From Escherichia phage P2_AC1: DNA of 33,349 nt. Numbering within the stretch: position 1 is the first letter of the stretch; the number at the start of each line of letters is the position of its first letter. The notes below the pieces were generated by a model. It was not told where the DNA came from and made no database searches. It saw only the letters and a program-made list of their open reading frames with translations. Below, one piece after another: positions 1,776-23,921 of the stretch. The stretch is from sequence record NC_070903.1; one strand, written 5' to 3'. A program made the position numbers and the translations under genes.

Positions 1776-2723
1776 TTATTCCATTTCATCCCGTTCTGCA
1801 TCCTCCTCATCCATCATGTCAATTAAATTTCTGGTCCGCAATCTAAGCGCACTATTGAACATATTGTTTGATGAAACCCCACAATAATTATCTAAGTGAG
1901 CGATTACTCTAGAACAATCCATTATCATTTTATTTAATGATTCAATTAACTCGCTCCTAGATGTTTCATCAATACCACGGCGAATAAATCTTCTTTTTAC
2001 ACGAATTAGTGAATGATGCATGGATAATAAATCAGAAGCTACAATTTTTAAAACAGTTTCTTTACGCCCTTCCCTGTTTATTATTTTGCTAACATATTCT
2101 TCTGGCAATAATGATGCTGGATCACGCAATAATTGGTGATTTGTTCGGCTAATATCCAGCAAACTTTCAACAATTTTGGAAAGATTTTGTATCTCAGAAG
2201 TCGAATCACCTTTTGTTTTTTTAGTGGAATCTTTATCTACAGGGTTAATATCTTGAATGTTATCTAACTCACGCTCTAAACTTGGCCACCATTGCTCGAA
2301 AGCTTTAGTTAAGCGTTCTTCAGTCAAAAATCCTGCTTGATTATTTATTGACAACATCAACTTCAAAATATCGTTCTTATCATCCGAACGAGTATACTGG
2401 AATTGTAATATTGGGCCTGTTATCTCAGATGGTTTAATTTTAAACAAGAAAGGACTAACCCGGCTCTTATCAACCTTTTTACCTAAAGCACCCGCCTCAA
2501 AATTTATCCACGGTGCATTAATATTATTTTTTGTAAGGCAAATAATCCCATAAGAAGAGTCATCAAGTTCCTTTGATATATCAGTCGCCCAGCGAGTGCC
2601 TTTATCAATATCTTCCGCTGATACGTACGGCTCAGCTACTTGAATAACATTCGGTATCCAATCCCGTAATACTTTTGCTATCTCCAGGCTGTCCTGACCT
2701 GACCAACTAATAAATATCTTCAT
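1776..2723 (-). CDS. TIR-domain protein (N-terminal TIR, about res 1-125) with C-terminal helical domain of unknown function; candidate NAD+-consuming defence effector/sensor
   Basis: 315-aa ORF, ATG 2721-2723 with AAGGT about 9 nt upstream; N-terminus MKIFISWSGQD matches the TIR beta-A motif (F-I-S-x-S-x-x-D, same spacing as FISYSEHD of Toll-like receptors); W72-x3-E76 (APWINFEAG) matches the TIR W-x-x-x-E spacing; AT-rich. Confidence 0.75.
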   Translation of the reverse strand: MKIFISWSGQDSLEIAKVLRDWIPNVIQVAEPYVSAEDIDKGTRWATDISKELDDSSYGIICLTKNNINAPWINFEAGALGKKVDKSRVSPFLFKIKPSEITGPILQFQYTRSDDKNDILKLMLSINNQAGFLTEERLTKAFEQWWPSLERELDNIQDINPVDKDSTKKTKGDSTSEIQNLSKIVESLLDISRTNHQLLRDPASLLPEEYVSKIINREGRKETVLKIVASDLLSMHHSLIRVKRRFIRRGIDETSRSELIESLNKMIMDCSRVIAHLDNYCGVSSNNMFNSALRLRTRNLIDMMDEEDAERDEME

Positions 2724-9017: not shown

Positions 9018-10028
9018 ATGGTGAATACAGCGCCGGAGGGCTTTCTTATGGCAATTAAGAAGCTCGATGATGGTCGCTATGAAGTGGACATTAGACCTCG
9101 CGGTCGCGACGGAAAACGCATCCGCAGGAAATTCGAAAGAAAAGCTGAGGCACTAGCATTTGAGCGATACACAATCGCCAATGCCAGTCAGAAAGAATGG
9201 GGAGGCCAGCGAGCAGACCGCCGGACTTTGAGTGAGTTGCTGGACATCTGGTGGAAATATCACGGGCAAAACCACGAGCATGGAACAAAAGAGTTTAATC
9301 ATCTACTCAAAACCATCAGCGGCATAGGTGATATACCAGTGAGCAGGATGAGCAAAAGGGCTTTGATGGATTATCGTTCCATGCGACTACGTGATGGTAT
9401 CAGTGCCGCAACGATAAACCGTGACATGTACCGATTATCCGGCATGTTCACAAAATTAATTCAATTGGATGAATTTTCCGGGCAACACCCAATTCACGGA
9501 CTGCCGCCACTGGCGGAGGCCAACCCTGAAATGACGTTCCTGGAAAAAGCAGAAATCGAAAAACTGTTAAATGTTTTGGCTGGTGATGACTTACTTGTCG
9601 CGCTTTTATGTCTGAGCACTGGAGGAAGATGGACGGAAGTTGCCACGCTAAAACCAGCACAGATTACAAATTGCAGGGTTACCTTCCTGAAAACCAAAAA
9701 CGGTAAAAAGCGAACCGTGCCGATTTCTGAGGAACTGGAGAAAAAAGTTAAAGAGGAGGCCAGCGCCAAATTATTCAAAGTTAATTATGAGAAATTTTGC
9801 GGGATTTTACGCAGAGTGAAACCTGATATACCACCCAATCAGGCAACCCACATCCTGCGGCATACATTCGCAAGCCATTTCATGATGAATGGGGGCAATA
9901 TAATCGCACTGCAACAGATTCTGGGACATGCGAGCATTCAGCAGACGATGGCCTATGCGCACCTTGCGCCTGACTATCTGCAAAATGCCGTCGCTCTGAA
10001 TCCACTAAAAGGCGGAGTGACGTTATAA
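9018..10028 (+). CDS. int: tyrosine integrase (P2 Int type)
   Basis: ORF with MAIKKLDDGRYEVDIRPRGRDGKRIRRKF start (likely true ATG at 9048), C-terminal HxLRHTF...H...Y catalytic region; reads toward attP as in P2. Confidence 0.95.
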   Translation: MVNTAPEGFLMAIKKLDDGRYEVDIRPRGRDGKRIRRKFERKAEALAFERYTIANASQKEWGGQRADRRTLSELLDIWWKYHGQNHEHGTKEFNHLLKTISGIGDIPVSRMSKRALMDYRSMRLRDGISAATINRDMYRLSGMFTKLIQLDEFSGQHPIHGLPPLAEANPEMTFLEKAEIEKLLNVLAGDDLLVALLCLSTGGRWTEVATLKPAQITNCRVTFLKTKNGKKRTVPISEELEKKVKEEASAKLFKVNYEKFCGILRRVKPDIPPNQATHILRHTFASHFMMNGGNIIALQQILGHASIQQTMAYAHLAPDYLQNAVALNPLKGGVTL

Positions 10029-17234: not shown

Positions 17235-17828
17235 TCAATTATGTAAATCTTTTGTTTCAGGTTTTTTGAGGTGTTGTGACAACAAATGGCTATAGCGTTT
17301 AAGCAAAATATTAGAAAGATTAAACTCATTCATGAAGTGTTCTTCTAATAAGTAACCATCAATATCAACTTTAATATCATTATTACTTTTCATCTTCTGT
17401 AACGTAGATTTTACACGCTCCAGCAGGATGCTTTGCTCATGGTAATAGTCCATAAGAAGAGTAACATCCTCTTTATCAAGTTTACTTAATTCACTGAAGT
17501 AGGCTTTAAACACTTTATCAGTCTGGTTTAATGCAACCTGTAAGCGAGGCCCTCCTAATGATTTGACATTAATGGCAAAAGGCTCGCCAACAAAATGCTC
17601 CGAATTTTCGTCAAAGCCAATATGTCTCGTTTTATCAAGAAAAGTGAGAGCGCGATGGTTATTAGCGATTTCATATGCAAACATTGTTCTGATACTGTCC
17701 CTCTCAGCCTCCATGCTTATATCATCACGGTGATTTGTATAAAATATATTTCCAACAAAGAGAACCATAGCAAGAATCACTGAACTTGCCTCCCAGTTAA
17801 TATTTTTTAATCGTCGCTTAGTAAACAT
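17235..17828 (-). CDS. hypothetical membrane-anchored cargo protein in the Z/fun variable locus
   Basis: 197-aa ORF, AAGGTG RBS 5 nt before ATG; N-terminal signal-anchor helix (about res 14-36), remainder soluble; AT-rich island 16906-18049 between G and FI. Confidence 0.6.
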   Translation of the reverse strand: MFTKRRLKNINWEASSVILAMVLFVGNIFYTNHRDDISMEAERDSIRTMFAYEIANNHRALTFLDKTRHIGFDENSEHFVGEPFAINVKSLGGPRLQVALNQTDKVFKAYFSELSKLDKEDVTLLMDYYHEQSILLERVKSTLQKMKSNNDIKVDIDGYLLEEHFMNEFNLSNILLKRYSHLLSQHLKKPETKDLHN

Positions 17829-18049: not shown

Positions 18050-18577
18050 TTATTGCGGCATTTCCGGCCATTCGGGATTTGCAGGATCCACACGACTGAC
18101 CAGAACGCTGTAGCGTTCCCATGCTTCCAGTCGGCTGCGTTCCTCATCCGTCGCCATATTCAGCTTGACAGCGCGTTCCAGCGGCAAAATCACGGATTCA
18201 ACTTCGGAAAGTAAAGCTGCTTTTTGTGATTCTGCCTGTTGCTCCTGTTCATCTGCCGTATAAATCCGCTTAATCACGGCACCATCCTTAAACATCCATT
18301 TACCTGAGTCATCAGCACGTCGGTTGGAGGTAATATCAGGAACCTCGACAACGCTGAAACCTTCAGGGTTAAGCGTTGAAGCATCTCTGGTGATGCCGAC
18401 AATTATATTATTCTCGTCGTAAACAATCTTTATCGTGTCTTCCTGAAAATTACTTACTTCCTCATACCAGTTTTTTCCCTCTTCGGACCATAACCAGATA
18501 ACATCAAAATTTTTTGTCAGTTGATATTGGGCAACAGTTTTTGGATTACCCGCAGTAATATTTTTTAAATGCTGCAT
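18050..18577 (-). CDS. G: tail fibre assembly protein gpG
   Basis: 175-aa ORF immediately downstream of H; P2 gpG length. Confidence 0.9.
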
Positions 18578-18580
18578 AAA

Positions 18581-20626
18581 TTACACCTGTGCGACGTTAT
18601 ACCATGTGCCATTGATGTATTTTTGTATTGGCCTGAATACTGCGGGGTCATCACCATCGACTTCACCGACAATACCAAGCCCGGTAATTACGTGCCCTGC
18701 TTTCTCATACATCACCCCTTTCTGCATGGTCTGGACAACACGTGTGCCAAGTCTGATATCTCTCACATAGCGGGAATCAAAGTTACCGTAATCCGAGGGA
18801 TTAACACGCCCCGTAATATTTATGGTCTTATTACTTTGAATGCTTCCGGAAACAAAGCGCATAACATGGACGTTATTAGCATAAACATCCAGATTACCAT
18901 CGCCATTTTGTTTAAATCCGGTGTCGTTATCACCAAGAACAATAGAGTTCCCACCCAACGCGTTATTCGTGCCAAGTGCCAGCCCGCCATCAATCCTGGC
19001 ACCATTACCAACAGACACAACTCCTGTTCTTAAGTTGATGCCGAATGGCCTTAATGGCCCAATATCTCCATTTTCACCCTCATTTTCTCGTGTAGGAATG
19101 ATATACAGGTTTTCTTCAGAACGGCGAAAAATAGCACCAAAAGATGAATTAAATATCCTCAGCGCATTGACTGTAGATATTTTTACTTCACTGCTGAAAA
19201 GGGCTTTAACAAGAACATACAGAGCATCCCATTTAAGATTCATCAGGTCTTTTGTTGTGGTGCTCTGGCGACTTCTCCATTTGAAATATTCATTGCCGTT
19301 GTCACCTGTTTCAAACCACATATATGAATCAGTATCGCTGTCGGCATCATTTTTAAATCCAATCTTTGCCCAGTCAGTATTTCGAATCCAGGCAAGGATT
19401 GAGTCGTTTTCAAAAGTAAGCCCGCCGGACAAGGTATCGCCATTTTTTTGCACGGCGTTCCCGGCTCGGTTTACCGTTTCCTGTAAACCGAGATATTCGA
19501 TAACGGCGGCAACGGTCGATTTAGCCAGAATATCCCGCCCGACTTTTGTCAGGGTCGCCAGGCTGGCAACATCATTCCCCGTAAAATACGGAAACCTGTC
19601 TGCCGCAGTAGCAAGCCCCGCCAGCGCCGTCAAAGTGGCATCTTTCGGTTGCTTACCCGCAAGCGCATTAGTCATGGTGGTAGCAAAATTCGGGTCATTG
19701 CCCAGCGCCGCCGCCAGCTCGTTCAGCGTATTCAGTGCGTCAGGCGACGAGTCTACAAGGGCGGCAATCGCGGCCATAACGAAAGCCGTGTTTGCGATCT
19801 GAGTATTATTCGTTCCCTGTCGCGCAGTTGGCGTCGTTGGCGTTCCGGTCAGTGCAGGGCTGTTTAATGGCGCTTTCTTGTTCGTTTCATCCATTACCGT
19901 CTTAACGGCTTTTGGTGTTGCGGCGAGCGTTTCAGACGTGCTGTTGGTGGCACTACTGAGCTGGACAAGGCCTTTTCGCGCTGTGGTGGCGTCCTGTGCA
20001 GTGTATTTCCCGTTAGCAAGGTCATATGCTGCTTTTACCGCTTTTGGTGTTGCGGCGAGTGTTTCAGACGTGCTGTTGGTCGCACTGCTTAACTGAGTAA
20101 AACCTTTGGCGGTCAGCGAGGCGTCCGGGTGACGTCGTGACTGTTCATGTTCTGCAATTTTGTCATCAACGTAATCCTGCGTTGCCATCACCGTTGTGGT
20201 GTCAATGGTCAGCGCCACTGAGGCCACACTGCTGACGATGATGACCATGCGGCAGGTCTGCGAACGCCCTGAGCCTTCGGCAAGAGCTGGCTTATAACTT
20301 TCAGCCATGTTCGCCACGGCAATTAACGTTCCAGCATCATCGTACAGGCCAAGCTCACGCATCCAGAAACCGCCCACCTCCGGCGGAATAACCAGCTCTG
20401 CGATAATATAATTACTGTTTCGTTTGTCCTGGCTGATTTTGTTCAGCGCATGTCGCCAGACTTCGTGGATAAGCCCGGTCTGTCCGGCATCCGGGACAGG
20501 CAATTTACCACCGCCATCCCCGACGGCCATCGTGGTAATGTTGACCTTCCGCCCTCCCGGCGCGGTTGCCGCTGCCAGCTTTGCTGCACCAGCAGTGGTG
20601 ATAACGGTTCTGAATTTTGTGCTCAT
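18581..20626 (-). CDS. H: tail fibre protein gpH (receptor-binding)
   Basis: 681-aa ORF; conserved N-terminus MSTKFRTVITTAGAAKLAAATAPGG..., internal duplicated QLSSATNSTSETLAATPKAVK motif, Gly/Asn-rich C-terminal region. Confidence 0.9.
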   Translation of the reverse strand: MSTKFRTVITTAGAAKLAAATAPGGRKVNITTMAVGDGGGKLPVPDAGQTGLIHEVWRHALNKISQDKRNSNYIIAELVIPPEVGGFWMRELGLYDDAGTLIAVANMAESYKPALAEGSGRSQTCRMVIIVSSVASVALTIDTTTVMATQDYVDDKIAEHEQSRRHPDASLTAKGFTQLSSATNSTSETLAATPKAVKAAYDLANGKYTAQDATTARKGLVQLSSATNSTSETLAATPKAVKTVMDETNKKAPLNSPALTGTPTTPTARQGTNNTQIANTAFVMAAIAALVDSSPDALNTLNELAAALGNDPNFATTMTNALAGKQPKDATLTALAGLATAADRFPYFTGNDVASLATLTKVGRDILAKSTVAAVIEYLGLQETVNRAGNAVQKNGDTLSGGLTFENDSILAWIRNTDWAKIGFKNDADSDTDSYMWFETGDNGNEYFKWRSRQSTTTKDLMNLKWDALYVLVKALFSSEVKISTVNALRIFNSSFGAIFRRSEENLYIIPTRENEGENGDIGPLRPFGINLRTGVVSVGNGARIDGGLALGTNNALGGNSIVLGDNDTGFKQNGDGNLDVYANNVHVMRFVSGSIQSNKTINITGRVNPSDYGNFDSRYVRDIRLGTRVVQTMQKGVMYEKAGHVITGLGIVGEVDGDDPAVFRPIQKYINGTWYNVAQV
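19905..20092. repeat. direct repeat inside H (two ~53-bp near-identical copies about 131 bp apart)
   Basis: Copies at 19905-19957 and 20036-20092 differ at a few positions; they encode the duplicated LSSATNSTSETLAATPKAVK peptide. Confidence 0.7.
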
Positions 20627-20636
20627 TATTCCTCAC

Positions 20637-21167
20637 TTATCCGGGGTAAACCGTAATTACATCGCCGTCATAAGCCACACCACCGGCGAACAGGTAGCCG
20701 GGAATGTCCCGGGTAATGTTCAGACCAATAAGGTGACGGCTTGCAGGTTTGGCATCAGCAATCAGCCGTTCCATTTCCTGATACATTGCCTCTGTGATAC
20801 CGCTTTCCAGTACACCAATATCAAGGCGGAAGGTGCCGGGCGGGTCACTGTTTTCCCACCACTCCGTCACGTTGATGAGATAGCCGAGCGGCTCCACCAC
20901 ACGCCGGATTGCGCCGATAGTGCCTTTATGACAGTGGATGAAATAGGCATCGCGGATAACGGCGCGTTTTGTCGCTTCCGGCCACTTTTCATCCCACCTG
21001 TCGACCGAAAACGCCCACGCCAGCCACGGCAGCAGATTTGCCGGGCAGGTGTCCGGGTTCCACAGCTCACGAATCCTGACCGGCGTTTTTTCAATTTCCG
21101 CACAGGCTTTTGCGGCGGCAACTTCAAGCGGTGATGAGCCGGTCGGCAGCAGGCGCGAATCACTCAT
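20637..21167 (-). CDS. I: baseplate protein gpI
   Basis: 176-aa ORF, P2 gpI length and position. Confidence 0.9.
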   Translation of the reverse strand: MSDSRLLPTGSSPLEVAAAKACAEIEKTPVRIRELWNPDTCPANLLPWLAWAFSVDRWDEKWPEATKRAVIRDAYFIHCHKGTIGAIRRVVEPLGYLINVTEWWENSDPPGTFRLDIGVLESGITEAMYQEMERLIADAKPASRHLIGLNITRDIPGYLFAGGVAYDGDVITVYPG

Positions 21168-22068
21168 CCGAGCCTCCGGTCACGACGCGGTATTCGGTAC
21201 AGAAAGACGCCTGCGTACTGTTGAGCACGATGTCAGCCAGTGGTGCAGCCAGTTCGACACGCTGCACGCCTTCCACATGCAAAGCGGCATAAATGGCAGA
21301 CAGACGGATGTCGCGCCCCAGCCGGTGCTGTGCCGTGATATACGCTTCCAGCTTTTTCACAGCGGCAGCGCGGATGGGTTCGCTTTCGGGACCAGGGTAA
21401 AGGTAAAGCGTGGCGTTTATCTGGTATTCAACGATGGCGGCAGACTGCACGGTCACGCGGTCGGCCACCGGCCTGACGTCCTCGCCATTAAGGGCGTTAC
21501 GCACCACAGCCAGCAGGTCTTCGGATGCGACGCCGTTATTTTCACGTGACAGCACAGAGATGGTGACACAGGCAGGAGACGGACTGGTGACAGAAATATC
21601 CGCGACACGCCCGTCGGCACTGCGACCATGATACTGATAAGCCCCCACCGACCCGGCGACGCTTAAACCTTCAAACGCCTGCTGAATACGCAGACGATAA
21701 TCGGTGTCAGATTCCATCACTGCCGGTGTCGGCGGAATGGTCGAATCATCTGCCGGGGTGATAGTCAGGCGCGTGGTGTTGTAATTGGCACCAATCACAT
21801 CAAGGTCATTACCGGCGGCACAGGCCAGCATTACCGCCCGTGCGGCCTCATTCACACGCTGACGCCAGATAAGCTCACGATAAGCATTTTCCTCCAGCAG
21901 TTTGACGAGAGGCTCGGATTCCAGCATCAGGGCACGGGCGACCGCCTCCTGCTGGTCTTCCGGGTAAAGGGAAATCAGTGTCGCCTTGCGTTCAGCAAGA
22001 ATGGTTTCAAAGTCCAGCTCCTCGACCACATCCGGTGCGGGTAGCTGGTTCAGGTCGATAATCGGCAT
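21160..22068 (-). CDS. J: baseplate protein gpJ
   Basis: 302-aa ORF, P2 gpJ length and position. Confidence 0.95.
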   Translation of the reverse strand: MPIIDLNQLPAPDVVEELDFETILAERKATLISLYPEDQQEAVARALMLESEPLVKLLEENAYRELIWRQRVNEAARAVMLACAAGNDLDVIGANYNTTRLTITPADDSTIPPTPAVMESDTDYRLRIQQAFEGLSVAGSVGAYQYHGRSADGRVADISVTSPSPACVTISVLSRENNGVASEDLLAVVRNALNGEDVRPVADRVTVQSAAIVEYQINATLYLYPGPESEPIRAAAVKKLEAYITAQHRLGRDIRLSAIYAALHVEGVQRVELAAPLADIVLNSTQASFCTEYRVVTGGSDE

Positions 22069-23135: not shown

Positions 23136-23921
23136 ATGGTCAGCTATAATGTGACTAATGTGTGGGGGCTAATCGTTTTTTTCCTTTGTAGCTTTGCAGT
23201 ATTAGCATTTTTTAGCTTTGGTAAAAGTAACCTTATGAGGCTTATTGCACATTATTTCAATTTTGGATATTCAGACAAAAAATTAAAAAGACTTGACCGC
23301 GAGTGGCGCGACATTCAACTATTTAAAATAATTAACGGAATCAATGTATCAGGCATTGAAAATGTGAGAATGATACAGCAGGGACTGATTGATGGAAAAC
23401 TAAAAACATCGTATTTTTTCCTTACTCGCATCTGGGGTGACATAACAAAACCACCACACATAATTAAAACAATAATTGTAATTCTGACCAGTATTTTTTA
23501 CATTCTCCTCGCATGTTACATACACAACAAACAATCCGTTATAGTAAGGGATGCCATAGGCATACCATATAAAAACATGATGTACTATGTTTATAGTGAC
23601 AAAGTTCTTTTATCCTTCAAAAATAAAGCAGTTGAATTTAATAAAACTTATAGCCTTGCCGATTGCAAGAAACTGCAAAACGTATTTATAAAAGACACAC
23701 TTCCTGAGATCGCCTGCAATAAGCTCTTACAGCTAAACGAGGAGGACTCCGAATGGTTAAGCCAGGAGATTAAAGATAATAACAGTCACAAAAAAGCATT
23801 ATTAATACTATCCCTCGTCTATTTCACTTCAGGTCTGGTTATATTCCTGTCATATACAAAATTCTTTTACGCCAATAAGAAGGTTTTAGAATACAAAGCA
23901 TCAAATAAAAATCACTCATAA
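23136..23921 (+). CDS. hypothetical polytopic membrane cargo protein in the S-V variable locus
   Basis: 261-aa ORF on the strand opposite the late operons; AAGGAGA RBS 5 nt before ATG; at least 3 hydrophobic helices (res ~10-28, ~112-132, ~222-242); AT-rich island 23071-23940. Confidence 0.6.
   Translation: MVSYNVTNVWGLIVFFLCSFAVLAFFSFGKSNLMRLIAHYFNFGYSDKKLKRLDREWRDIQLFKIINGINVSGIENVRMIQQGLIDGKLKTSYFFLTRIWGDITKPPHIIKTIIVILTSIFYILLACYIHNKQSVIVRDAIGIPYKNMMYYVYSDKVLLSFKNKAVEFNKTYSLADCKKLQNVFIKDTLPEIACNKLLQLNEEDSEWLSQEIKDNNSHKKALLILSLVYFTSGLVIFLSYTKFFYANKKVLEYKASNKNHS

What the first reader, a model, noticed from the sequence alone, without database searches (positions are those of the whole stretch)
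18581..20626. Tail fibre H with an internal tandem duplication and a Gly/Asn-rich C-terminal receptor-binding region
H contains two ~53-bp near-identical direct repeats (19905-19957 and 20036-20092) encoding a duplicated LSSATNSTSETLAATPKAVK segment; these are a substrate for recombinational length variation. The C-terminal ~200 residues, which determine host range together with G, are the part most likely to differ from P2.
Basis: seen in the sequence. Interest (0 to 1): 0.4.

Follow-up and report, generated by a model that had tools for sequence, protein, structure and literature searches.

The report
Ordinary P2-type tail fibre gene
This is the well-known tail-fibre gene H of a P2-like E. 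coli phage: its two internal repeats are an old, catalogued protein repeat also present in P2, and its tip carries a swapped receptor-binding cassette already seen in many E. coli prophages, so the finding is correct but ordinary.

Summary
The ORF at 18581-20626 (minus strand, 681 aa) is P2 gene H, in the V-W-J-I-H-G order and followed by chaperone G. The direct repeat is real: 62 of 74 nt at 19902-19975 and 20034-20107, spaced 132 nt, against at most 42 of 74 in shuffles.

The repeat is not special to this phage. It is two tandem 44-aa units of Pfam PF03406, with the same protein sequence as in P2. The two copies differ only synonymously in their cores and share at most 20 exact nt, so the duplication is old.

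- **Copy number varies.** It ranges from 1 to 5 among 109 related H genes, always in 44-aa phase. Some arrays hold 132-nt units that are 100% identical. A natural one-copy allele is a clean repeat-1/repeat-2 hybrid. The 120 closest relatives, however, all have two copies.
- **The C-terminus differs from P2.** Residues 1-469 are about 99% P2. Residues 470-612 are a replaced cassette that is identical in phage pro147. The last 69 residues are 81% P2.

From residue 375 the protein is homologous to Mu fibre protein S (PDB 5YVQ), starting at a relic gix inversion site. The exact protein is already in public databases. Verdict: already known, low interest.

The parts
18581..20626 (-). Gene H, tail fibre protein, 681 aa (end includes the stop codon)
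   Evidence: ORF. Pfam PF12571, PF03406 x2 and PF21446. About 92% aligned-column identity to P2 gpH and 99% to phage pro147 ORF11 (tblastn 98.8%). Exact match to CAH0786508.1 (phage P2_AC1).
20174..20626 (-). N-terminal baseplate-attachment domain, aa 1-151 (Phage_tail_fib, PF12571)
   Evidence: Pfam E=4.6e-58 over the full length of the model. Aa 1-169 are 97-100% identical in all P2-type alleles examined.
19988..20119 (-). PF03406 repeat unit 1, aa 170-213 (SLTAKGFTQLSSATNSTSETLAATPKAVKAAYDLANGKYTAQDA). It contains the DNA repeat copy 20034-20107.
19856..19987 (-). PF03406 repeat unit 2, aa 214-257 (TTARKGLVQLSSATNSTSETLAATPKAVKTVMDETNKKAPLNSP). It contains the DNA repeat copy 19902-19975.
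   Evidence: In other alleles the unit's tail is the junction to different downstream modules.
19505..19855 (-). Conserved shaft segment, aa 258-374
   Evidence: 97-100% identical in all P2-type alleles. Aa 276-372 match the PDB chain 9D93 'tail collar fibers gp4' at E=3.3e-10.
19478..19503 (-). Relic gix/cix-type inversion crossover site, TTATCGAATATCTCGGTTTACAGGAA, which encodes IEYLGLQE (aa 376-383)
   Evidence: 23 of 26 nt match the sequence at Mu's annotated G-segment boundary, and it lies exactly where homology to the Mu S variable part begins. The next best match in the window is 16 of 26. The site is identical in P2.
19220..19504 (-). Conserved first part of the Mu-S-like module, aa 375-469
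   Evidence: Nearly identical to Mu S aa 166-260. 92-100% identical among P2-type alleles. GC content falls from about 55% to 40-45% here.
18791..19219 (-). Variable receptor-binding cassette, aa 470-612, the part that differs from P2
   Evidence: Identity to P2 is 8% over aa 470-545 and 63% over aa 546-612, with large indels. DNA identity to P2 is lost between about 19250 and 18640. The cassette is 100% identical in pro147. It is homologous to Mu S aa 261-440. At full length it occurs in 47 of 5426 complete E. coli genomes, and in pieces in 1234.
18581..18790 (-). Conserved fibre tip, aa 613-681 (NFDSRYVRD...INGTWYNVAQV) plus the stop codon
   Evidence: 81% identical to P2 H and alignable to the Mu S C-terminus.
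18050..18577 (-). Gene G, tail fibre assembly protein, 175 aa
   Evidence: Pfam Caudo_TAP E=1.4e-34. 91% identical to P2 gpG. 86% identical to Mu U, also called TfaMu.
20637..21167 (-). Gene I, baseplate protein, the upstream neighbour (context)
   Evidence: Pfam Tail_P2_I E=8e-56. The gene order matches the P2 V-W-J-I-H-G operon.

Best explanation
This is gene H of a P2-like (Peduovirus) phage. It encodes the trimeric tail fibre and is built from modules that recombination has shuffled. Residues 1-151 dock the fibre on the baseplate. Residues 170-257 are two tandem 44-residue PF03406 units that form part of the proximal shaft. They are an old duplication shared with P2 and kept by selection on the protein, not on the DNA. 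Residues 258-374 continue the shaft. From residue 375 onward, starting at a relic gix/cix crossover site, the protein is the homologue of the variable part of Mu and P1 fibre protein S, fixed in one orientation. Within that module, residues 470-612 are a swappable cassette that most likely sets which lipopolysaccharide core the phage binds. The last 69 residues are the conserved tip that the chaperone G (86% identical to Mu TfaMu) helps to trimerise. Shown here: the homologies, the repeat anatomy, the breakpoints, the copy-number polymorphism across the family, and the one-copy hybrid allele. Inferred: trimeric assembly, the receptor being LPS, and the cassette determining host range.
For: - **Context.** The gene order is I-H-G with the matching Pfam families. 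Window positions 10000-33349 are 96% identical in DNA to P2 over 94% of their length.
- **Repeats.** There are two PF03406 hits. The two units have the same protein sequence as in P2. The 20-residue cores are identical in protein but differ at 8 nt, all synonymous.
- **Mosaic.** The boundaries against P2, pro147 and other P2-type alleles were mapped.
- **Mu homology.** Mu S (PDB 5YVQ) matches aa 375-680 at E=2e-92, and BLASTP gives 51% identity. The gix-like site matches 23 of 26 nt at the start of that homology. GC content drops at the same point. G is 86% identical to Mu U.
- **Literature.** The host-range-determining region of P2 H is C-terminal, and chimeric fibres with the matching chaperone work (PMC9942202). 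L-413C H is a mosaic of P2 H (PMC7460101). Mu Tfa stays bound to the distal fibre (PMC9608196). Mu fibres bind LPS (PMC11915804).
Against: Nothing found contradicts this reading. Three things remain untested. The receptor of this particular cassette is unknown. No structure covers the PF03406 units, and their structure and function were described as little known (PMC3368898). The role of the cassette in host range rests on analogy with P2, Mu and P1 chimeras, not on data for this allele.
Confidence: 0.92

Rival explanations
1. The two repeats in this allele are an active recombination hotspot that currently produces fibre-length variants in this phage lineage.
For: Copy number ranges from 1 to 5 in the family. 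The same downstream module occurs with 3, 4 or 5 copies. Adjacent units are 132 of 132 nt identical in L005 and L083. One-copy P2-type alleles in E. coli YL03 and strain 405 have the crossover mapped between unit positions 60 and 81, which is the longest exact run shared by the two copies.
Against: In this allele only 82 of 132 nt match, and the longest exact run is 20 nt. That is below the roughly 23-27 bp usually quoted for efficient RecA recombination (from my own knowledge). All 120 closest relatives (0-8 substitutions) have 681 aa. All 22 P2-type IMG/VR alleles with a complete H gene have two copies. Two-copy alleles share a median of only 14 exact nt between units, against 41-53 in four- and five-copy alleles.
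Confidence: 0.15
2. The main evolutionary role of the PF03406 core is as a conserved linker, at which unrelated tail-fibre genes recombine to exchange whole C-terminal modules. Length variation would then be secondary. This does not exclude the best explanation.
For: In 109 H genes homology to the window ends right after the last AATPKAVK core. At least three unrelated continuations follow it: DNAEKRLQKDQNGADIP..., NDNANGRVP..RK.NG... and the P2-type TVMDETNKKAPLNSP. Mu S carries one copy just upstream of its variable part. L-413C H keeps P2 identity only to about residue 207, which lies inside the repeat region (PMC7460101). The repeat also occurs in lambda Stf and in EHEC prophage collagen-like fibres (PMC3368898).
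Against: In this window's allele the exchange with respect to P2 happened far downstream, at about residue 470, not at the repeats. Junction placement may simply reflect domain boundaries that tolerate fusion.
Confidence: 0.35
3. The C-terminal part of H together with G is a switchable (invertible) host-range segment, as in Mu, P1 or p15B.
For: A 23 of 26 nt gix-like site lies at the start of the Mu-Sv homology. H aa 375-681 and G are homologous to Mu Sv and U.
Against: There is only one such site in the 33-kb window; the next best match is 16 of 26. No alternative S'/U' genes lie downstream, only a 197-aa ORF of unknown function. No serine invertase was found; the only recombinase seen is a tyrosine integrase at 9018-10028. 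P2, which has the identical site, is not known to invert (from my own knowledge).
Confidence: 0.01
4. The repeat is a chance match or an assembly artefact.
For: None.
Against: The match is 62 of 74 nt, against at most 42 in 100 shuffles. The same two units are present in P2, pro147 and more than 100 independent assemblies.
Confidence: 0.005

Closest known systems
Bacteriophage P2 gpH (AAD03286.1, 669 aa) with gpG
   Same: Same operon position. Residues 1-469 are about 99% identical, including both PF03406 units and the relic gix site. The last 69 residues are 81% identical. G is 91% identical.
   Different: Residues 470-612 are replaced. A 68-residue stretch here has no counterpart in P2, and two P2-specific stretches (18 and 38 residues) are absent here. 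DNA identity is lost between about 19250 and 18640.
Escherichia phage pro147 ORF11 (AKH49327.1) and phage P2_AC1 (CAH0786508.1)
   Same: Both are 681 aa. The pro147 protein is 98.8% identical, with the same cassette at about 100% DNA identity. The P2_AC1 protein is identical in sequence.
   Different: The pro147 G allele is only 78-92% identical in DNA along its length. A recombination boundary therefore lies at or near the H/G junction.
Phage Mu tail fibre S (gp49, PDB 5YVQ and 9KI1) with U (TfaMu, gp50)
   Same: H aa 375-681 align with Mu S 166-504 (51% identity, E=2e-98). The first 95 residues are nearly identical. G is 86% identical to U. Mu S also has one PF03406 unit just upstream.
   Different: The N-terminal baseplate-binding part is unrelated. 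Mu has two inverted gix sites, alternative S'/U' genes and the Gin invertase, and this window has none of these. The cassette at aa 470-612 is shorter than, and diverged from, that of Mu S.
Yersinia phage L-413C gpH
   Same: It is a P2-like H gene described as a recombinational mosaic. The N-terminal and C-terminal parts are like P2, the middle is foreign, and the mosaic was proposed to set host specificity (PMC7460101, citing Garcia et al. 2008).
   Different: The L-413C breakpoint is at about residue 207, inside the repeat region, and its foreign part is much longer. Here the foreign part is only residues 470-612.
Pfam PF03406 (Phage_fiber_2, 'Pf2') repeats of lambda Stf and EHEC prophage fibres
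   Same: Same repeat family. The hits are above the gathering score, and there are two units.
   Different: Those proteins have a different N-terminal domain (PF08400) and often collagen-like segments (PMC3368898).

Membership tests
P2-type tail fibre protein H (Peduovirus) | N-terminal tail-collar fibre domain (PF12571) | tested here: met
   E=4.6e-58, 195.9 bits against a cut-off of 23, covering model positions 1-150 of 150.
P2-type tail fibre protein H (Peduovirus) | Position in the V-W-J-I-H-G late operon, directly followed by a Caudo_TAP chaperone gene | tested here: met
   I (PF09684) lies at 20637-21167 and G (PF02413) at 18050-18577, both on the same strand as H. The order is as annotated in P2.
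P2-type tail fibre protein H (Peduovirus) | Full-length sequence homology to P2 gpH | tested here: met
   About 92% aligned-column identity overall and about 99% over residues 1-469.
P2-type tail fibre protein H (Peduovirus) | Is a virion fibre component and mediates adsorption to LPS core | not testable with these tools
   Inferred from P2, Mu and L-413C work (PMC9942202, PMC7460101, PMC11915804).
PF03406 Phage_fiber_2 repeat proteins | One or more repeats of about 42 residues that score above the Pfam gathering threshold | tested here: met
   138.4 bits against a cut-off of 22, in two stretches. An HMM built here finds copies starting at aa 174 and 218, 44 residues apart.
Mu S / P1 S variable fibre module | Sequence homology to the variable part of S, and of the downstream gene to U | tested here: met
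   PDB 5YVQ matches at E=2e-92. BLASTP gives E=2e-98. G is 86% identical to U.
Invertible host-range segments (Mu G, P1 C, p15B Min) | Two inverted crossover sites (gix/cix) flanking the segment | tested here: not met
   One site matches 23 of 26 nt at 19478-19503. The next best match anywhere in the window is 16 of 26.
Invertible host-range segments (Mu G, P1 C, p15B Min) | An alternative set of fibre and chaperone genes in opposite orientation, and a serine invertase gene | tested here: not met
   Downstream of G there is only a 197-aa ORF of unknown function. No resolvase or invertase domain was found in the non-P2 ORFs scanned. The window is otherwise collinear with P2.

The most novel reading that the evidence does not exclude
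The PF03406 array of P2-like H genes may be a fast-evolving length module. Unequal recombination adds or removes exact 44-residue units, giving 1 to 5 copies, some of them 100% identical in DNA and therefore recent. The same receptor-binding tip would then be carried on shafts of different length, perhaps tuned to the thickness of the host's O-antigen or capsule layer. The window's two-copy allele would be a stabilised, diverged state of that system. I found no paper that describes this polymorphism for P2-like phages, but the library searched is incomplete.
Probability: 0.25. Interest if true: 0.35.

Novelty: already known. Interest (0 to 1): 0.15.

Why it matters
It matters little for discovery. 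The gene, its repeat family, its Mu/P1-related C-terminal module and this exact allele are all already in public databases and in the literature.

It does have practical value for annotation and engineering. The analysis gives exact module boundaries, at residues 170/214/258, 375, 470 and 613. At these points natural recombination has joined parts, which makes them sensible fusion points for retargeting P2/P4 particles or R-type pyocins.

The side result is a small, testable point about how fibre length evolves. PF03406 copy number varies from 1 to 5 in strict 44-residue steps, with recent duplications and a natural one-copy hybrid.

Tried and rejected
- **Tandem Repeats Finder** found nothing at the repeat, because whole units are only 62% identical. 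The repeat is still real.
- **Rfam** search of the whole window gave no hit, so there is no known RNA element in or near H.
- **Invertible segment** was rejected: one gix-like site only, no invertase, and no alternative fibre genes.
- **Diversity-generating retroelement or another programmed variation mechanism** got no support. There is no other repeat of 21 nt or more in 18400-21500 apart from one weak 22-nt inverted pair, and the window is collinear with P2. I did not scan every ORF for a reverse transcriptase.
- **The many ORFs on the plus strand inside H** (for example 18921-19802) are mechanical antisense ORFs with no support.
- **Structure prediction was not run.** Only near-identical homologues could be supplied as an alignment, the fibre is a trimer, and a solved homologue (5YVQ) already covers residues 375-680.
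- **Papers not held** in the library: Haggard-Ljungquist 1992, Christie and Calendar 2016, and North and Davidson 2021. My recollection that the P2 paper already noted the similarity to Mu/P1 S and the crossover-site relic is therefore unverified.
- **Literature searches** for a described copy-number polymorphism of this repeat found nothing relevant.

Full report
**What is at the coordinates.** The interval 18581-20626 is one ORF on the minus strand that encodes 681 residues. Its neighbours on the same strand are a Tail_P2_I protein (20637-21167) upstream and a Caudo_TAP tail-fibre assembly protein (18050-18577) downstream. This matches the annotated V-W-J-I-H-G operon of phage P2. Window positions 10000-33349 are 96% identical in DNA to P2 over 94% of their length. 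The protein carries four Pfam matches:
- the N-terminal tail-collar fibre domain PF12571 (E=4.6e-58);
- two copies of the phage tail fibre repeat PF03406 (E=5.3e-41);
- the Gp34_trimer domain;
- a sub-threshold gp37_trimer match.

**The repeat.**
- The repeat finder gives two copies of 74 nt (19902-19975 and 20034-20107), 84% identical and 132 nt apart.
- On the coding strand 62 of 74 nt match. In 100 codon shuffles of H the best 74-nt match averaged 37 and never exceeded 42.
- At protein level the copies are the cores of two tandem 44-residue units, aa 170-213 and 214-257, which correspond to the two PF03406 hits.
- The first 29 residues of the units are nearly the same, and the last 15 differ: AAYDLANGKYTAQDA against TVMDETNKKAPLNSP.
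- Whole units share 82 of 132 nt, and the longest exact run is 20 nt. This explains why Tandem Repeats Finder reported nothing there.
- Within the 20-residue identical core the two copies differ at 8 nucleotides, all synonymous. Selection therefore acts on the protein, and the duplication is old.
- P2 H has the same two units, with identical protein sequence.

**Comparison with P2 and other phages.**
- Residues 1-469 are about 99% identical to P2 gpH.
- From residue 470 the alignment breaks. A 68-residue stretch has no counterpart in P2, and two P2-specific stretches (18 and 38 residues) are missing here.
- Similarity returns for the last 69 residues, at 81%.
- In DNA, identity to P2 is 90-100% down to about 19250, is lost until about 18640, and then returns.
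- Phage pro147 has the same 681-residue protein (98.8%) and the same cassette at about 100% DNA identity. Its G gene is only 78-92% identical.
- The exact protein is already public as CAH0786508.1 (Escherichia phage P2_AC1) and is seen on 125 contigs.
- The 120 best database relatives all have 681 residues and 0-8 substitutions.
- The full-length cassette is present in 47 of 5426 complete E. coli genomes. Pieces of it occur separately in 1234 genomes, in genes annotated as several kinds of tail fibre.
- Among P2-type alleles, residues 1-469 stay at 92-100% identity, while residues 470-681 fall into at least four full-length types (669, 681, 673/717 and 724 residues).

**Relation to Mu and P1.**
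- Residues 375-680 match the solved Mu tail fibre protein S (PDB 5YVQ) at E=2e-92. BLASTP gives 51% identity, and the first 95 residues are nearly identical.
- G is 86% identical to Mu U, the chaperone TfaMu.
- The homology starts at TTATCGAATATCTCGGTTTACAGGAA (window 19478-19503). This matches 23 of 26 nt of the sequence at Mu's annotated G-segment boundary and encodes IEYLGLQE.
- It is the only such site in the window; the next best match is 16 of 26. No invertase was found among the non-P2 ORFs scanned, and the only recombinase seen is a tyrosine integrase. The site is therefore a relic, not a working switch.
- P2 has the identical site.
- GC content falls from about 55% to 40-45% at the same point, as expected for a module of foreign origin.

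**Copy number in relatives.** I fetched 36 loci from one-genome-per-species bacterial assemblies and 80 loci from IMG/VR, using residues 1-290 as the query.
- 109 H genes were counted in all: the window's own, 104 complete genes from those loci, plus P2, pro147 and two E. coli chromosomes. An HMM of the repeat core finds 1 copy in 9 genes, 2 in 37, 3 in 14, 4 in 42 and 5 in 7. All 219 spacings between successive copies are exactly 44 residues.
- Clustering the sequence downstream of the last repeat shows the same module with different copy numbers, for example 3, 4 and 5, or 3 and 4. Copy number therefore changes independently of module exchange.
- Arrays with more copies have more similar units. 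The median longest exact run shared by any two units is 14 nt in two-copy alleles, 27 in three-copy, 41 in four-copy and 53 in five-copy alleles. L005 and L083 each contain two adjacent units that are 132 of 132 nt identical.
- In the IMG/VR sample, alleles with the P2-type junction always have two copies.
- A search of complete E. coli genomes, however, found P2-type alleles that are 132 nt shorter. The alleles in E. coli YL03 and strain 405 lack exactly 44 residues.
- Their single unit is like repeat 1 at 19 of the first 20 diagnostic sites and like repeat 2 at all 30 remaining sites. The crossover lies between unit positions 60 and 81, which is the longest exact run shared by the two copies.
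- The tail of unit 1 plus the head of unit 2 is the standard internal junction of longer arrays. The one-copy form is therefore best read as a deletion, not as the ancestor.

For this allele the substrate is poor, and no variants are seen among its closest relatives.

**How it most likely works.** Several points are taken from homology and from the literature.
- The N-terminal domain anchors a trimeric fibre on the baseplate wedge, as resolved for Mu gp49 (PMC11915804).
- The PF03406 units and residues 258-374 form the shaft. The structure and function of PF03406 were described as little known (PMC3368898).
- The Mu-S-like module forms the distal part.
- The chaperone binds the distal fibre, drives trimerisation and, in Mu, stays on the virion (PMC9608196).
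- The host-range-determining region of P2 H is C-terminal. It can be exchanged, together with the matching chaperone, to retarget particles (PMC9942202).
- L-413C H is a comparable natural mosaic that has been linked to Yersinia pestis specificity (PMC7460101).

I infer that residues 470-612 set which LPS core variant is bound, and that the conserved last 69 residues keep the fibre compatible with a G protein of the P2/Mu type. This inference is not tested here.

**Composition.** The last 212 residues are 13.2% Gly and 9.9% Asn (49 G+N of 212), against 61 of 469 in the rest of the protein (Fisher p=0.0015). P2 H and Mu S show similar values in the same region, 21.5% and 26.3%. The enrichment is real but is a family trait.

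**Verdict.** It is a known gene, a catalogued repeat, a known kind of mosaic, and an allele already in public databases. The only mildly new point is the strict 44-residue copy-number polymorphism (1 to 5) of the PF03406 array in P2-like H genes, with signs of recent duplication and deletion. I found no paper that describes it, but the library searched is incomplete.

Noticed in passing
window 19478-19503 (minus strand): There is a relic gix/cix-type inversion crossover site inside H (23 of 26 nt to the Mu G-segment boundary sequence). It lies exactly where homology to the Mu S variable part begins. It is the only such site in the window and is identical in P2.
   Followed up: yes
window 1776-2723 (minus strand), with neighbour 105-1022: A 315-aa protein matches the PADLOC model TIR-TM (E=2.7e-118) and Pfam TIR_2, so it is a candidate anti-phage defence gene. 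It sits at the genome end where I recall P2 carrying old/tin (my recollection, not checked here). The adjacent 305-aa ORF has no family hit.
   Followed up: partly
window 17235-17828 (minus strand): An AT-rich (31-39% GC) 197-aa ORF of unknown function (phrog_3829) lies between G and the sheath gene, in place of P2 fun(Z). It is found only in Peduovirus genomes at this spot. A promoter-like site lies at 17867-17840 and a terminator-like hairpin at 17029-17009.
   Followed up: partly
window 18050-18577 compared with L002 5047-5577: The H cassette is about 100% identical in DNA to that of pro147, but G is only 78-92% identical and is patchy against both pro147 and P2. A recombination boundary therefore lies at or near the H/G junction.
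   Followed up: partly
L121 2075-4096 (E. coli YL03, NZ_CP093548.1 18663-20684) and L122 (strain 405): These are natural one-copy P2-type H alleles (673 aa) that lack exactly 44 residues. The single unit is a repeat-1/repeat-2 hybrid, with the crossover in the longest exact run the two copies share. They carry a third, more Mu-S-like C-terminal cassette.
   Followed up: yes
L005 and L083 (H genes with four repeat units): Two adjacent 132-nt PF03406 units are 100% identical in DNA, which indicates very recent duplication. Five-copy alleles (for example L068) also exist.
   Followed up: partly
window 19450-18400: GC content drops from about 55% in the first two thirds of H to 40-45% in its last third and in the start of G. 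This fits a foreign origin for the Mu/P1-like module.
   Followed up: partly
window 23136-23921 (plus strand): A 261-aa ORF lies on the strand opposite to its neighbours, at the position of P2 orf30. It has no Pfam or PADLOC hit.
   Followed up: no
L044 and L059 (IMG/VR): These P2-type H genes have only 519 and 487 residues. They are identical to the window up to about residue 469 and then end early, so they may be truncated alleles or pseudogenes.
   Followed up: no
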